A DNA stretch of 64,000 nucleotides, taken from the NCBI RefSeq assembly GCF_009914755.1, contig NC_060941.1. One strand, given 5' to 3'. Of the stretch, positions 1 through 6,262 are shown piece after piece (position 1 is the stretch's first letter; each line of letters begins with the position of its first letter). Source of the DNA: the human T2T-CHM13v2.0 reference genome, Homo sapiens. The notes beneath the pieces are model-generated. The model searched no databases. It was not told the DNA's origin and saw only the letters and a list, made by a program, of their open reading frames with translations. A program made the translations under genes and the position numbers.

Positions 1-21
1 TTGAATAACACAACACATTAG

Positions 22-152
22 TCCATTTATGCCAGAGGTTGCAATTTTTTGAATTTTTGCATAAGTGAAAAATCAGACCTTGTCGATGACATTTAACAGG
101 AGGATATAAATAATTTCCACATGCTTAGCATGGAACACTAGGCATAAGTGGG
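22..152 (-). mobile_element. MER85 (piggyBac/PGBD3-derived MITE)
   Basis: Terminal inverted repeats (T)CCATTTATGCC ... GGCATAAGTGGG. The minus strand reads CCCACTTATGCCTAGTGTTCCA..GCTAAGCATGTGG..TTATTTATATCCT..AAGGTCTGAT..GCAAAAATTCAAAAAATTGCAACCTCTGGCATAAATGG, matching the recalled MER85 consensus. Flanks TTAG/CTAA resemble a decayed TTAA target site. Confidence 0.9.
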
Positions 153-965
153 CTAACACAATTATGAAAGCATAGCTATTCAAGTAACTAATTATACAAC
201 TGATTTTTTTTCCTCATCTCTAAAACATAGTAAGGGATCAGTTATTTAAAAAACACAACAGTGACAAGTATTTTATTTTTAACTCAGTTTTGGTTTGTTA
301 AGGCTATTGCTTGGCATAAAAATACAAAAACAGGAGGAGAAACAAGAATACAAACATGAAATAGAACCAGTAGCAAAAGAAAATGAAGAGGAACAAGAAA
401 ATGCAAAGAAAATACACAATGGAAGAAAGGAAAAAGAACAGGTGTGGGAATTAGAAGGCCTATCATATGACACTTTTTATCCCCTCCTCGATTCATAAAA
501 TTTCAGTAACTCCAAGAGTATCACAACAAAAAACAAGCAAAAGGATACACAAATAGTCACCCTCTAAATTTTGTTAAGAATGAGATAATGCTGCCACTCA
601 CGCCTAACTCTGGCACCAGCAGGAGGAGGGCACACTCCAGAGATTGCAGAAGGGGGAGGACTCCTCTTTGCCCTAGGTGTACCACCACCACTGCCACCGA
701 GGCCTTCGTTACAGCACCCACAGGTTCCTCCCCTCCCCAGAACGGGATGGGCCCTGCAGTGCTCCTACTCCCCCTTCCCGGCCCCCAGACTTCCTACTGC
801 TACCACCACTAGTGCCGATGCCAATACAAGCAGTCATCCTCAACGTACCAGCCCACCCTACCAGGATCCTACCACCAGGTCCCCGTGGGTGCCCTCCTAC
901 CGCTCCAGTCGAGCTGTGGTCTCCATCTCCAACACCAACTGCATGAGGCAAGCTGCAGAGCCACG

Positions 966-1064
966 TCATCTGCTCGACCTTACCACAGGCAGCGACTCCT
1001 TCTCCTCCTTCAGCCTGGCTTGGAGCAGCTGGGCAGGCAAAGCAAGAAAAACCCAAAACAGGAC
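966..1064 (-). pseudogene. BAGE-like peptide reading frame lacking an ATG ([32 protein letters not shown])
   Basis: Manual translation of the minus strand aligns with the recalled BAGE protein [33 protein letters not shown]... There is an in-frame TGA at 1067-1065, and the nearest ATG (1081-1079) is out of frame. Confidence 0.75.
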
Positions 1065-1619
1065 TCAGGGATTGGAACCATTAGAGCCTCACCTCGTTAT
1101 GCTGGTGACTGGGTGTCAGGGATCAGTTTCATTGAAGACACTCACACCCACCTTCCAAAGTCCAACCTCTCCTTCTGGCAAAAGCTGGCCAGGAACTGGG
1201 GCCTGGGGTGGGAGTGAGTGCCTTTACTGAAACCGGCCCCTGGCCAAGTCCAGCTGGCCAGGAATTGCTGGGCCCACCAAGGCTGCCCTCCTCCAGGAGC
1301 CTGAGTAGGAGAAACTCAGACCCAGCCAGCCCTCCCCACCCAAGGGCTGATTCCCATTCCTGACACCTCCACCCACAGTGCCCTGTCTCCCACTTCCCCC
1401 ATGGTGCATACTACTCCCTGCCCGGTTGTCAGGTGGTCTTTGCAACACAAAGAAACCACAGTGGGTGTGGAGGCCCTACCGTGCAATCCAGCTCGAGTGG
1501 AGAAAATCGCCTTCTAGAGTCTGGAGTCCGAGAAGAGGAAAACGATCCCTTACTTGGAAGCTACGAGAAGAAGGAGGCCACTGTTGTTGCTGCCCCTGCC
1601 ACCTCCTCAGCTTGCCAAT

Positions 1620-2200
1620 GCCGCTGGCAGTGTAGCCCCCATGGCACCCCTAATCTGCCCCCTGCCACTAGCAGTGTAGCCCCCGGATAGCACATCCAAC
1701 ACACCCTACAGTTTCAGGCAATGTAACCCCAATACCCCCCTGCAAAAGCCCCCCCACACACACCTCAGGGAGCATACCACCCAATAGTGCCCACAATCTG
1801 ACCCAGCCACGGGCAGTTCAGCTCCTAATGGTGCACCCCCCAGTCACAGACAGTGCAGCACCCAACAACGCCCCTAAACCACCCCCCACTGCCAGCACTG
1901 TAGCCCCGGATAACTCCACCCAACCCACTCCCTGCCGCGGGCAGTGCAGCAGAAGATAGCGCCCCTAATCCTTCCCCAGCCACCAGCAATACAAGCTAGT
2001 GTACACAATCTGCCTCCCCCCACCACCCCTGCCACCACGGGCAGTATAGCCCCAGATAGCCAGGCAACCTGCCCCACCACCAGCAGTGCAACCCCAGAGA
2101 GTGCCCCAAACCAGACCACTGCCACAGGCAGGGTAGCCTCTAGCGGTGAACCCCAATAGGACACCCAACCCTTGCCCCCCGAGGCACACAGGGCAGGCCC
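1620..2200. repeat. Degenerate C-rich minisatellite, ~40-50 bp unit (GCAGTGTAGCCCC..GATAGC..CCC)
   Basis: Recurrent motif at ~1626, 1671, 1717, 1771, 1811, 1849, 1894, 1940, 2040, 2083 and 2127. Confidence 0.75.
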
Positions 2201-2547
2201 AGAAATCTCACCTACCCCATCACATTTCTACCACTGTGGTTGAGCTGCAGTCTCCGACGTCACCACCAACCACAGCGAGGCGAGCCATGGTGGCACAGGT
2301 TCCAGCCTCCAGCATGTGGCAGTGCCTCTTCCTTCTAGTCCTCCTGCTGCTGCTGACCGCTCTCCTACTGCTCTATCGCTACCACCAACCTCAGCGAGGT
2401 AGTGACCTAGGCTCCAAGCTCCATCCATCCTCCACCCTCCAGCAGGCGGAAGGTTGCGGCCTCTTCCAGTCCTCTAAGCTGGACACAGAGTTGCTCCTCC
2501 GCTCGACACAGAAGAGCCTGAAACGACCTGACACCACCTCAGCATGC

Positions 2548-2760
2548 TTTATATATGAGGTTATGCAAACGCAGTTCCTGGACTACATGTTCTGATTGGA
2601 TGAGAAAAAAAACCTCTAGGCCTACTCTGATTGGACTTTATTTTCATGCTGTGATTGGTTGTGTTAAGACTTGCTCTCATCCAATCAGAACATGATCATT
2701 CCCATTCCTGACACCTCCACCCACAGTGCCCTGTCTCCCACTTCCCCCGCAGTATATAAA
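2548..2760. promoter_or_regulatory. Bidirectional TATA/CCAAT core promoter with an octamer-like site
   Basis: TATATAAA on the minus strand (2555-2548) and the plus strand (2753-2760). ATTGG at 2595, 2630 and 2654, CCAAT at 2681, ATGCAAAC at 2563-2570. Perfect 20-bp inverted repeat at 2586-2605 / 2675-2694. Confidence 0.7.
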
Positions 2761-2779
2761 TGATGCTGAAGCAGCAACA

Positions 2780-2950
2780 CGTTTTTTCAAGTTCCTGTAT
2801 CTTCATGTCGAGTTGCTCGCTGCCCAACGTAGAGGACTAGGAATCAGGAGTCGGTGGCCGTATGCTGGAGGCTGGAGCCGCGGGAGTGCAGCTCGCCTCG
2901 CTGCGGTTGTTGGCAGTGAGGGAGAGAGAGCAGCGCGGCTGGAGCGGGTA
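2780..2950 (+). ncRNA. Putative rightward BAGE exon-1-like first exon
   Basis: Downstream of the plus-strand TATA. Contains TAGAGGACT..TGCTGGAGGCTGGAGCC..GCTCGCCTCGCTGCGGTT..GGAGCGG|GTAGGC, homologous to the left arm and to the recalled BAGE 5' UTR. CpG-rich. Confidence 0.45.
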
Positions 2951-4175
2951 GGCGAAGGAAAGCAGTTTTGGGATAGATAGAGGGGAGTAAAGAGGGTAGT
3001 TAGGGCCAAAGGGAAAAAAGGATAGCTTAGCTGGAGAAGGCATTGCAAAAAGATGGCAGCGAAAAGATGGTGGGGAAAAAAGTTTTTGCGTAGATGGAGG
3101 TGTAAAAAACAGGGTGGGGAGCGGGAGGGAAGGAAGGTTTTGCAGAAAGACGGTAGGTAAAAAGTTTAAGGGTAGATGGAGGGGGAAAAGAGGGTGGCAG
3201 GTGGGCGGAGGAAAGAGAGGGAGGTGATGGGGGAAAACGGGGCGAGCAGTAGGCAGAGAAGGTTTTGTGAAAAGATAGTGGGGAGAACATACAGTGAGGG
3301 GGGAAAGTTTTTGGGTTGAGCAAAAGAGGGTAGCAAGTGGGAGAAGGAAAAAGAGGGTAGCCAGCAGGAGGAAGACAAGGTTTTGTGAAAAGACAGTGGC
3401 AGAAAAGAAAGACGGTGAAGAAAGAAAAGACGGGGGGTGAAAAGTGTTTTGATAGATGGAGGGGGGAAGAGGATAATGAGGAGGAAAGAGGGTGGCGACA
3501 GGTAGCAGGGATGGGGGTTGGGAAAACAACGGAAAAATAGTTTGGGGCAGAGGGAGGGGAAAAAGGGTGGCAAGCAGGATAGGGGAAAAAAGAGCACTAG
3601 TGGTAAAGGGGGGAGACTTTGAAAAGATGGTGGGGAAAGTTTTGGGGTGTAGATGGAGGGGGAAAGAGGGAGGTGAATAGCCGTGGGGAGAAGGCTTTGT
3701 GAAAAGACGGAGGGAAATGTTTTTGGGTAGATGGAGAAGCGAAAGAGAATGGCAAGGAGGAACGGGGAAAGACGATGAAGAAAACAGTTTTTGGTTGGAT
3801 GAAGCAGGGAAAGAGGGTAGTGAGCAGCAGGAGTGGAGAGAAGGTTTTGGGAAAAGACGGGGGAAAATGTTTTTGCTTAGATAAAGGAGCAAAAGAGGGT
3901 GATGAGAGCGGGACGGGGAAAAAGAGGGTGGCCAGGGGTAAGGGGAAAAGACGGTGGGAAGAAACTGGGGAAAGGGTTTGGGTAGATGGATGGGGAAAAG
4001 GGTGTTGAGCAGGAGAGTAGAGGCGGCTTTGTGAAATGAGGGTGGGCAAAAAATGATGAAGAAGTTTGGGGGCAGATGGTGAAAGAAAAAGGGTGGTGAG
4101 AGGGAGGGGGCCAAAGGCCGTTTGGAAAAGAAGGTAGGGAAATAATGGTGGGGGACAAAGGTTTGGGGTAGTTTT
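2950..4175 (+). repeat. Purine (G/A)-rich degenerate tandem repeat, ~80-100 bp period
   Basis: Recurring AAAAGA(C/T)GGTGGGG..AAAG/TTTTTGGGTAGATGGAGGGGGAAAAGAGGGTGGC units with strong C depletion on the + strand. Confidence 0.8.
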
Positions 4176-4187
4176 TGTGATAAGATC

Positions 4188-4956
<769 letters not shown>

Positions 4957-5159
4957 TGGAAACCTAACTTTATTTTTTAGTGTAGTATTTGTATATATAC
5001 TTTAATAGCCCTGAGTTTTAATAAAGTTGCTTTTAAAAATGTATCTTATATTTCAGAAATATACCCTAAGTCATGTGATTAGTTGGGTGGCATGTTGTTT
5101 AGTTTTTACAATTGAAGGATTGTCATTCCTTTGTACAAAAAAAAAAAAGTGAATTTTTA

Positions 5160-5430
5160 TCATATACTAGAGGAAAGAAGGCAGATACTAAATAATAAAT
5201 ATTGTATGCTTCCACGTAAATAAAATTTGAAATTATATAAAGACAGAATGCATTGAACTTTTCTGGGGTTGAAGTGGGGAATTCATTGGCAAAGGTCGTG
5301 CAATAAATGTGTAGGTGAAGGGAATATTCTATATTTGATTGTGTAGGTGATTAGCTTTATAAATTTGTAAAACTGAACTGGACTAAAATGTGTGCCTTAT
5401 ACGCAGATTATTCTATAAAATTGATTAAAA
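5160..5430 (+). mobile_element. Ancient L1M 3' UTR fragment
   Basis: Resembles L1ME/MC 3' ends (TATTGTATGCTTCCA..GGAATATTCTATATTTGATTGTG..TTTGTAAAACT). Confidence 0.55.
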
Positions 5431-6262
5431 CTAGTTAGAAGAGAATCAGTCAAGGGGAAAAGAAAGAAAAGGCACGTGAAAAAATAATGCCAATGCACTA
5501 GAATTGTCTTTGATGACATTAAATATAGCCTGGTCTTCTGTTAATTCTTTTTAAAATTTACGTAGATTTCTCAATCCTTTGATACTTTTTCCTCAGCACA
5601 TCTTATATTCTCATATATGTTAATGTATGGCTACATAAGAGAGGGCTCTCTTACAGTTGGACTTGGAACAGCTTGATATTTATATCTAGAGATGCATCGG
5701 AAGCATAACACTGACCCGTGAGCAAGATGAAAATGGCATGTGCTAGTTAGTGATTCATAATGTGTTGCTTTAAGTTTAGTGCCAACTGGTCTACATCGTT
5801 GAGAATGTTTAGTTTGATAGTTTACACAACTTGGCTTAGGAAGTATATAACCAACAATGTATGAGGGAGCCTGCTGTAAAGACTTTTCTGCACTTCCCTT
5901 TAATTATTATAGTAAGCTCAAATCTTGAAGGTTCATAATATACAGACAAAATGTGTCCGTGAGACTGAGAAAGGATCTTTAGGGAGAAAGGCTCTGTTCC
6001 TGAAAGACAGACTTTCAATGATTTCCTGCATTTTATTTCTGTTGTACTTTACATTTACCTTTATTAAACACTAATAAGGTGGTTCTTATAGGGCCTCATA
6101 GGCCTTTTTAGTTTTCCAACCTATTCATACTTGGTGCAAACCTAGTAATTTTTTGCGTGATAGTATTGGGATTTTACTCGGAGGCTAGGCTTCACACTGT
6201 AAAAACAGCTTTTTGGAATTGTATCATTTTCAGTCTTTGCATCGTGTTCCACTGTCCCAGCC

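What the first reader, a model, noticed from the sequence alone, without database searches (positions are those of the whole stretch)
2205..2955. Head-to-head inverted duplication of a BAGE exon-1-like promoter module: candidate portable bidirectional germline/tumour promoter cassette
Seen: reading outward from the centre, both arms share CCAATCAGAACATG, TATATAAA..ATGCTGA, GTCGAG, TAGAGGACT, TGCTGGAGG(C/G)TGGAG, CCTCGCTG.GGTT and a downstream donor-like site. The left arm carries the exon unit twice, and a further copy lies near 880-1060. Established: BAGE genes are methylation-controlled cancer-testis genes formed by segmental-duplication shuffling with KMT2C fragments. No KMT2C exons are recognisable in this window. 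Inference: this is a non-transposon, self-symmetric promoter/first-exon cassette that can drive two divergent transcripts and capture whatever lies next to it, here a repeat-rich desert. It is the best candidate for an under-described system in this window.
Basis: partly seen in the sequence, partly recalled or inferred. Interest (0 to 1): 0.8.

Follow-up and report, generated by a model that had tools for sequence, protein, structure and literature searches.

The report
REP522 palindromic repeat promoter copy
The inverted repeat is real, but it is one slightly damaged copy of REP522, a known palindromic human repeat already reported to act as a cancer-activated promoter, so it is not a new system.

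Summary
The head-to-head repeat at 2205-2955 is real. It is not special to this locus. The same module occurs at 40 or more loci on 12 chromosomes.

In better-preserved copies it is a cleaner palindrome. Six CCAAT boxes sit at fixed spacing around a centre. On each side lie an outward TATA box, a first-exon-like unit and a splice donor. Arrays beyond the arms are G-rich on the outward-reading strand.

Published BAGE primers match exactly on the arm homologous to the window's left arm. The right arm is the annotated UBBP4 exon 1. This fits REP522, which print describes as about 1.8 kb, largely palindromic, interspersed, enriched for cancer-activated promoters and present at BAGE.

The window copy is degraded: 51 bp copied from 1350-1400 replaced two right-arm CCAAT boxes. 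CpG retention favours the right arm, so activity is probably mostly one-directional here. Verdict: already known, low interest. I could not align the window to the REP522 consensus, so the family name rests on indirect evidence.

The parts
890..1060 (-). Third, distal copy of the exon-end and donor unit (..CTGGAGCGGTAGGAG.. on the minus strand)
   Evidence: Inverted pair I4, 900-923 against 2924-2947, 79%; direct reading.
1350..1400 (+). Source of the 51-bp patch copied into the right arm
   Evidence: Direct repeat D18, 51 of 51 identical. In 14 of 15 other copies compared (L032 gave no match) this 51-mer matches only at the site homologous to 1350-1400.
1600..2204 (-). Degenerate repeats, C-rich on the plus strand and so G-rich on the outward-reading minus strand. 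This is the 'intron 1' side of the left arm and is colinear with BAGE intron 1 sequence.
   Evidence: Repeat families D10 and D11; GC skew -0.27 to -0.44; L041 positions 1304-1697 align to window 1918-2321.
2205..2345 (-). Left arm, outer exon-like unit with a donor-like site (GGG|GTAGGT or TAG|GTGAGA at about 2210-2216)
   Evidence: Pairs I1 and I2; the CTCACCTAC stretch is kept in the 14-copy alignment.
2381..2490 (-). Left arm, inner exon-like unit. This is the homologue of the start of BAGE exon 1.
   Evidence: Pairs I5 and I7. BAGE primer +32f aligns at 2453-2478 (-) with 7 mismatches. L041 is colinear with this region.
2548..2555 (-). Left-arm TATA box (TATATAAA on the minus strand)
   Evidence: A TATA-like motif sits at this position in 13 of 24 left arms.
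2586..2694 (.). Palindromic CCAAT core. Boxes at 2595-2599, 2630-2634 and 2654-2658 (minus sense) and 2681-2685 (plus sense), around a short asymmetric centre near 2660-2675.
   Evidence: I3 is a 20-nt perfect inverted repeat. Four of the 7 CCAATCR sites in the 64-kb window fall within 95 nt here. This is the best-conserved segment across copies.
2698..2748 (+). Patch found only in this copy. About 83 bp of the right inner arm, holding two CCAAT boxes, was replaced by an exact 51-bp copy of 1350-1400.
   Evidence: all 13 other aligned copies lack the patch, and 12 of them keep the canonical right inner arm. Also.
2753..2760 (+). Right-arm TATA box (TATATAAA), 36 nt upstream of the annotated UBBP4 TSS
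   Evidence: A TATA-like motif sits here in 16 of 24 right arms.
2789..2947 (+). Right-arm first exon, which is UBBP4 exon 1 (NR_176224.1). It is CpG-dense, and its donor is GCGG|GTAGGC at 2948.
   Evidence: Gene table supplied with the finding. CpG observed/expected 0.91, 13 CpG in 159 nt.
2948..4170 (+). G-rich degenerate tandem array in UBBP4 intron 1. Units are loosely 80-150 nt of the ..GGGTAGATGGAGGGG.. type.
   Evidence: Repeat families D1-D16; self-matches at 66-75%; GC skew +0.56 to +0.79.

Best explanation
Window 2205-2955 is the promoter core of one copy of REP522, a known, largely palindromic, interspersed human repeat.

Shown here, the ancestral module:
- Six CCAAT boxes sit at about -68, -34, -10, +14, +38 and +71 from a centre.
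- Each side then carries an outward-facing TATA box at about +/-105-120.
- Beyond that comes a CpG-rich first-exon-like unit ending in a splice donor.
- Beyond the arms, the sequence is G-rich on the outward-reading strand.
- The inverted duplication predates the spread of the family.

Shown here, use of the arms: in this window the right arm is the annotated alternative first exon of UBBP4. At BAGE loci the homologue of the left arm carries BAGE exon 1.

Inferred mechanism:
- NF-Y-type factors bind the CCAAT cluster, and TATA-directed initiation can proceed outward on either side.
- The donor at the end of each arm splices to whatever exons lie downstream.
- DNA methylation and H3K9me3 keep most copies silent, and loss of these marks in tumours or early embryos switches copies on.
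- At this locus the module is probably used mainly rightward. The right exon keeps CpG-island density, the left arm has decayed, and the right arm still has its TATA box despite losing two CCAAT boxes to a 51-bp patch.
For: Family-wide module:
- The 131-nt core finds 40 distinct loci on chromosomes 2, 7, 9, 10, 13, 14, 15, 17, 18, 20, 21 and 22. Only 40 of 65 candidates were scored, so this is a lower bound. 30 of those loci also match in the reverse orientation.
- Arm-against-arm alignment was made for the window and 16 of 23 other copies; my centre-finder failed on the other 7. Scores were 91-207 in those 16, against about 21 +/- 2.3 for shuffles. Typical spans were 8 to about 100-325 nt from the centre. 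The window itself scored 52.

Motif census over 24 copies:
- 3 or more CCAAT boxes: 20 left arms and 17 right arms.
- TATA-like motif: 13 left arms and 16 right arms.

Age and conservation:
- In a tree of the arms, left arms group with left arms and right with right for 20 of 24 copies. No copy's two arms are sisters (support values not examined).
- The core 2574-2697 is 94.3% identical between a 9-copy group and a 5-copy group. Flanking segments are 67-84% identical, or 72-90% with CpG-prone columns removed.

Link to BAGE:
- The de-converted BAGE primer +32f hits 14 genome sites, against 0 for the reversed control.
- Primers +32f and 99f match exactly, 67 nt apart, in L041, L042 and L043, next to a 3+3 CCAAT core.
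- L041 read on its minus strand is colinear with window 1918-3407. BAGE exon 1 therefore corresponds to the window's left arm, minus strand.

Link to REP522 (passages read):
[quoted passage not shown] - REP522 RNA rises at the 8-cell stage (PMC6545021).
- RepeatMasker class Satellite/telo (PMC4240582).

Directionality:
- CpG observed/expected is 0.91 in exon 1 (2789-2947) and 0.44 in the left arm.
- Right arms hold 0.69-1.06 in 17 of 24 copies. Left arms are 0.64 or lower in all 24.
- GC skew changes sign at the centre.
Against: - No direct alignment to the Repbase or Dfam REP522 consensus was possible. The family name rests on the BAGE link and on matching descriptions.
- The region is not among the masked stretches listed from NCBI's file. 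That mask covers only 10% of the window, so it is clearly not a full repeat annotation.
- Homology between copies runs for about 6 kb (window -1740 to about 4296), which is longer than the 1.8 kb quoted for REP522.
- One paper calls REP522 'mostly telomeric', whereas the loci found here are mostly pericentromeric or acrocentric.
- NF-Y binding is inferred from CCAAT motifs only. No held paper contains both REP522 and NF-Y.
- High core conservation could partly reflect its lack of CpG (3 of 124 columns flagged) or gene conversion rather than selection.
- No expression or CAGE data were available to me for either arm of this locus.
Confidence: 0.85

Rival explanations
1. This particular locus is a truly bidirectional promoter. 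Besides UBBP4 exon 1, an unannotated minus-strand transcript starts near 2509-2525 from the left arm and splices from a donor near 2210-2216 into upstream DNA.
For: - The left arm keeps TATATAAA at 2548-2555 (-) and three CCAAT boxes.
- By consensus match, its donor-like sites are at least as good as the annotated right-arm donor: 6-7 of 9 positions against 6 of 9, from my reading.
- The homologous arm is the working BAGE first exon at other copies.
Against: - The supplied RefSeq table has no minus-strand gene starting here.
- Left-arm CpG observed/expected is 0.44-0.48, against 0.91 for the right arm. This suggests long-term germline methylation of the left arm.
- The same asymmetry holds across the family: left arms are 0.64 or lower in all 24 copies.
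Confidence: 0.25
2. The main importance of the palindrome is structural. It would be a hairpin- or cruciform-forming, recombination-prone element that marks or seeds pericentromeric duplications and inversions. Promoter use by UBBP4 and BAGE would be incidental.
For: - A well-preserved core folds as a near-perfect long hairpin: L041 680-940, -70.7 kcal/mol, z -12.2.
- One of 19 copies with both flanks fetched has its core flipped relative to its flanks (L038).
- Several copies are truncated inside the module: L030 ends at 2839, L032 starts at 2221, L040 starts at 2505.
- The window copy carries a templated 51-bp patch.
Against: - The CCAAT boxes keep fixed positions and the TATA boxes are retained.
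- Right arms keep CpG-island density in 17 of 24 copies.
- TSS use is documented: UBBP4 by annotation, BAGE by primer numbering, REP522 promoters by CAGE.
- These features are what a promoter, not just a hairpin, would keep.
- The window's own core folds weakly (z -2.66), yet it still hosts an annotated exon.
Confidence: 0.12
3. The module derives from a retroviral LTR or another transposon promoter that was duplicated head to head.
For: A TATA box with upstream CCAAT boxes and a downstream donor is also typical of some LTR promoters. This is general knowledge, not tested here.
Against: - The only description found calls REP522 an 'unclassified interspersed repeat', and RepeatMasker files it as a satellite.
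- Copies are colinear over 6-10 kb, like segmental duplications.
- ORFs of 90 aa or more in 1-4300 are only three low-complexity frames.
- LTR termini, target-site duplications and polyadenylation signals were not looked for.
Confidence: 0.04

Closest known systems
REP522 (RepeatMasker/Repbase family, class Satellite/telo)
   Same: - Largely palindromic, multi-copy and interspersed.
- Contains promoters.
- Present at the BAGE locus.
- Silenced by H3K9me3, and active in cancers and at the 8-cell stage.
- The module here is palindromic, multi-copy, carries an annotated TSS and underlies BAGE exon 1.
   Different: - Not aligned to the consensus here.
- The window copy has lost two right-arm CCAAT boxes to a 51-bp patch.
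- The window copy carries the left exon unit twice.
- Homology between copies reaches about 6 kb, not 1.8 kb.
BAGE gene 5' ends (BAGE loci on chromosomes 13, 18, 21 and others)
   Same: They have the same palindromic CCAAT core, which is 89-92% identical to window 2570-2700. BAGE exon 1 is homologous to the window's left-arm exon unit.
   Different: - The published BAGE primers do not match the window: 7-8 mismatches out of 24-26.
- BAGE-type copies have lost canonical TATA boxes and are CpG-poor on both arms, at 0.12-0.38.
- The gene fed here is UBBP4, from the opposite arm.
NF-Y-dependent bidirectional promoters of ordinary human gene pairs
   Same: CCAAT boxes lie between divergent start sites a few hundred bp apart, with CpG-rich first exons.
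   Different: - Here the two sides are copies of each other and each has a TATA box.
- The unit is repeated at 40 or more loci.
- Only one direction is annotated at this locus.
- The class features are recalled, and NF-Y binding was not tested.

Membership tests
REP522 | Largely palindromic architecture | tested here: met
   Arms align in the window (score 52) and in 16 other copies (scores 91-207), against about 21 for shuffles. GC skew is opposite on the two sides. The description comes from PMC4896275.
REP522 | Interspersed, multi-copy | tested here: met
   40 loci on 12 chromosomes, a lower bound. Further BAGE-primer sites include one near the end of chromosome 5.
REP522 | Unit size about 1.8 kb | tested here: inconclusive
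   Copies are colinear over about 6 kb or more. Where the REP522 model would start and end could not be determined.
REP522 | Present at the BAGE locus | tested here: met
   PMC3560060 places REP522 at BAGE. Exact BAGE primer sites sit on an arm of the same palindrome in L041-L043.
REP522 | Significant match to the Repbase or Dfam REP522 consensus | not testable with these tools
   No repeat library is on hand. Rfam has no family for it. Only sub-threshold hairpin-type hits fall on the cores of other copies.
REP522 | Contains transcription start sites | tested here: met
   UBBP4 exon 1 starts at 2789 (supplied RefSeq table), 36 nt after TATATAAA at 2753. CAGE data themselves were not available.
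BAGE gene | BAGE exon 1 sequence (published primers +32f and 99f) | tested here: not met
   The best sites in the window have 7-8 mismatches. L041-L043 match exactly.
BAGE gene | Downstream exons derived from KMT2C (MLL3) fragments | not tested
   No KMT2C sequence was available from a tool. The feature is recalled, not checked.
Bidirectional promoter | Two divergent start sites in use at the same locus | tested here: inconclusive
   Only the plus-strand start is annotated here. The other arm is used at BAGE loci. The CpG asymmetry argues against equal use.
LTR retrotransposon | LTR termini, target-site duplication, match to an LTR model | not tested
   No repeat library was available and I did not look for termini.

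The most novel reading that the evidence does not exclude
The six-CCAAT palindromic core of REP522 may be a selectively maintained promoter driven by NF-Y-type factors.
- Its right arm would have stayed unmethylated in the germline at most copies: CpG observed/expected is 0.69-1.06 in 17 of 24 right arms, and 0.64 or lower in all 24 left arms.
- That would make it a standing germline or early-embryo promoter network feeding pericentromeric non-coding and pseudogene transcripts such as UBBP4.
- Left-arm use, as in BAGE, would be the methylation-gated exception.

Neither the CCAAT-cluster anatomy nor the left/right CpG asymmetry appeared in the open texts I could search. The two key REP522 papers were not readable.
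Probability: 0.25. Interest if true: 0.5.

Novelty: already known. Interest (0 to 1): 0.22.

Why it matters
Filing this as REP522 removes a false lead from the scan. It explains two things at once: why a far-upstream UBBP4 exon looks like BAGE exon 1, and why the module recurs near centromeres.

Three smaller points may be useful to people who study repeat-derived promoters:
- The module has a fixed six-CCAAT layout.
- UBBP4 and BAGE use opposite arms of it.
- The two arms retain CpG very differently.

Together these give a concrete, testable picture of how one palindromic repeat supplies first exons to unrelated transcripts, and of which side is likely kept open in the germline.

Tried and rejected
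- Rfam on window 1-6000 and on four other copies. It returned only Alu-derived hits (SRP, mir-1268, mir-3135) and sub-threshold hairpin hits (MIR4372, MIR6288, Phe_leader) on the palindromic cores. There is no family for this element, so these hits are uninformative.
- A second link to REP522 through hsa-miR-5701, which a preprint says overlaps REP522. The one miR-5701 paper I opened printed no sequence in the passages I read. I dropped this line.
- Kaczkowski et al. 2016 by DOI and by PubMed id: not held. Horie et al. 2017 was not looked up. I know both only through citing text.
- Literature searches that led nowhere: 'HSREP522' found 0 papers. 'BAGE + promoter + CCAAT' returned 90 papers; none of the 12 listed looked relevant by title or abstract. 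'REP522 + NF-Y' found 0 papers.
- Tandem Repeats Finder on 500-4400 found only one short 18-nt array. The G-rich arrays are too degenerate for it and show up only in the repeat finder and blastn.
- Whether the palindrome extends into the flanking arrays: blastn at word size 7 found no minus-strand match between 1600-2200 and 2950-4170. The arrays share strand composition but no detectable sequence.
- ORFs: three ORFs of 90 aa or more, all low-complexity, including a 450-aa frame across the G-rich array. I rejected them as coding and did not search them against Pfam.
- Chance or low complexity as an explanation of the inverted repeat: rejected by the shuffle controls.
Only four short loci were added, so the census of BAGE-type copies is incomplete.
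Full report

Yes.

- The repeat finder reports five inverted pairs inside 2205-2955. One is a perfect 20-nt pair, 2586-2605 against 2675-2694. A sixth pair links 900-923 to 2924-2947.
- A local alignment of the right arm against the reverse complement of the left arm scores 52. In 300 shuffles the mean was 19.0 +/- 2.2 and the maximum 28.
- blastn gives 73.5% identity over 83 nt, E 1e-4.

So the arms are truly related but old and diverged.

**2. It is a repeat family, not a local oddity.**

- The 401-nt centre (2560-2960) gave 79 matches in the genome.
- The 131-nt core (2570-2700) gave 70 matches at 40 distinct loci on chromosomes 2, 7, 9, 10, 13, 14, 15, 17, 18, 20, 21 and 22. Only 40 of 65 candidates were scored, so this is a lower bound.
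- 30 of these loci also match in the reverse orientation, so the core is palindromic there too.
- Most loci lie beside centromeres or on acrocentric short arms. A few are in chromosome arms: 9q at 100 and 107 Mb, 13q at 23 Mb, 22q at 21-33 Mb.
- Close copies are colinear with the window for 10 kb or more at 89-95% identity, like segmental duplications. More distant copies (70-83%) share roughly window -1740 to about 4296. Some are truncated inside the module.

**3. Anatomy of the ancestral module.**

A 14-copy alignment of 2100-3050 and a motif census of 24 copies show the canonical form:

- Six CCAAT boxes sit at about -68, -34, -10, +14, +38 and +71 from the centre. All read outward as CCAATCA/G-type boxes.
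- An outward TATA-like box follows at about 105-120 on each side.
- Next comes an exon-like unit that starts ..TAGAGGAC.. and ends at a GT donor.
- Three or more CCAAT boxes are present in 20 of 24 left arms and 17 of 24 right arms.
- TATA-like motifs are present in 13 of 24 left arms and 16 of 24 right arms.

Arm-against-arm alignments were made for the window and 16 other copies; my centre-finder failed on 7 of the 23 others. Scores in the 16 were 91-207, against about 21 +/- 2.3 for shuffles. The best, in BAGE-type copies, span 8 to about 295 nt from the centre. A BAGE-type core folds as a near-perfect long DNA hairpin (-70.7 kcal/mol, z -12.2).

Outside the arms the sequence is C-rich on the left and G-rich on the right. 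GC skew runs from -0.27 to -0.44 on the left and +0.56 to +0.79 on the right, and changes sign at the centre. Both outward transcripts would therefore be G-rich. The two arrays share no detectable sequence.

**4. The palindrome is older than the family's spread.**

In a FastTree of 48 arms, left arms group with left arms and right arms with right arms for 20 of 24 copies. In no copy are the two arms sisters (midpoint root, support values not examined). The inverted duplication is thus a property of the family founder, not an event at this locus.

**5. What is particular to the window copy.**

- All 13 other aligned copies lack this patch, and 12 of them have about 83 bp of right inner arm with two CCAAT boxes between the innermost right CCAAT and the TATA box. 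The window instead has an exact 51-bp copy of its own 1350-1400.
- The source 51-mer sits at the homologous upstream site in the other copies, so the direction of copying is clear.
- As a result the window's right arm keeps one CCAAT box, and its core folds only weakly (-30.4 kcal/mol, z -2.66).
- The annotated UBBP4 exon 1 starts at 2789, 36 nt after TATATAAA at 2753. It ends at a GT at 2948 (supplied gene table).

**6. Relation to BAGE.**

- A BAGE methylation paper prints primers named by position from the BAGE start (PMC3757347, passages read).
- The de-converted +32f primer hits 14 genome sites: 11 exact, 1 with one mismatch and 2 with two mismatches. The reversed control hits 0.
- Five of these sites lie within about 220 nt of core matches.
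- In three fetched loci (L041 on chromosome 18, L042 on 21, L043 on 13), primers +32f and 99f both match exactly, 67 nt apart. They sit on one arm of a symmetric 3+3 CCAAT palindrome.
- L041 read on its minus strand is colinear with window 1918-3407. BAGE exon 1 therefore corresponds to the window's left arm on the minus strand, with a BAGE-equivalent +1 near 2509.

So the two arms are each used as a first exon, but at different copies and for unrelated downstream genes. The window itself is not a BAGE gene: the primers have 7-8 mismatches there.

**7. What it is called.**

[quoted passage not shown] It was H3K9me3-marked in human liver and transcribed when human chromosome 21 is carried in mouse (PMC3560060, passages).
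- REP522 RNA rises at the 8-cell stage (PMC6545021, passages).
- REP522 is enriched in lncRNA exons (bioRxiv 10.1101/189753, passage).
- It is discussed as a cancer marker (PMC6925957, passages).
- RepeatMasker files it as Satellite/telo (PMC4240582, passage).

A palindromic form, many interspersed copies, embedded promoters and presence at BAGE all fit the module found here. I could not align the window to the REP522 consensus, so I give the assignment about 85-90% confidence, not certainty.

**8. How it most likely works.**

Shown:
- The motif layout and its conservation.
- An annotated start 36 nt after a TATA box.
- Use of the opposite arm by BAGE.

Inferred:
- The CCAAT cluster binds NF-Y-type factors. 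This rests on recalled consensus knowledge. No held paper links REP522 and NF-Y.
- TATA boxes set outward starts about 270-300 bp apart.
- Each arm's donor splices to whatever lies downstream.
- Methylation and H3K9me3 gate activity.

Conservation supports function. The core 2574-2697 is 94.3% identical between a 9-copy group and a 5-copy group. Flanks are 67-84% identical, or 72-90% without CpG-prone columns. The core's lack of CpG, or gene conversion, could explain part of this.

**9. Is it bidirectional here?**

Not shown, and the CpG record argues for a bias.

- Exon 1 (2789-2947) has CpG observed/expected 0.91. The left arm has 0.44.
- Across copies, right arms hold 0.69-1.06 in 17 of 24. 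Left arms are 0.64 or lower in all 24. BAGE-type copies are low on both arms, at 0.12-0.38.
- This pattern suggests long-term germline protection of right arms only. It also fits the reported hypermethylation of BAGE loci in normal tissue.

**10. Verdict.**

The interpretation as a portable, symmetric promoter and first-exon cassette is essentially right.

The details added here are modest:
- the six-CCAAT layout,
- opposite-arm use by UBBP4 and BAGE,
- the arm-specific CpG retention,
- the 51-bp patch,
- one flipped core.

They may or may not be in the two key papers I could not read.

Noticed in passing
window 2698-2748 and 1350-1400: An exact 51-bp direct copy of 1350-1400 replaces about 83 bp of the right inner arm, including two CCAAT boxes. 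It is found only in this copy. All 13 other aligned copies lack the patch, and 12 of them keep the canonical arm. The junctions show 2-3 nt of shared bases, which looks like a template-switch repair.
   Followed up: partly
L038 (G000:C18:14799700-14809699), about 4887-5106: The palindromic core is inverted relative to its flanks, compared with the window and 18 other copies that have both flanks. This is as expected from recombination between the inverted arms.
   Followed up: partly
arms of 24 copies (window plus L022-L044): CpG retention is strongly one-sided. Right arms have observed/expected 0.69-1.06 in 17 of 24 copies, and left arms are 0.64 or lower in all 24.
   Followed up: partly
window 4288-4623 and 4627-5007: Two tandem Alu elements sit at the right end of the shared unit. 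Homology to diverged copies stops at about 4296 and in some copies resumes after about 4614, so at least the first Alu looks like an insertion into the unit.
   Followed up: no
G000:C5:181841401-181841426: An exact BAGE +32f primer site lies near the end of chromosome 5. It falls outside the pericentromeric and acrocentric pattern of the other sites. The locus was not fetched.
   Followed up: no
window 2837-4189, minus strand: A 450-aa stop-free ATG frame runs across the G-rich array. It is low-complexity and Pro/Ser/Leu/Phe-rich, and is almost certainly a by-product of strand composition.
   Followed up: no
L013 1546-1676, L014 1635-1768, L036 4906-5039: Sub-threshold Rfam hits to plant miRNA and leader models fall exactly on the palindromic cores. 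They reflect the hairpin only. A preprint says hsa-miR-5701 overlaps REP522.
   Followed up: partly
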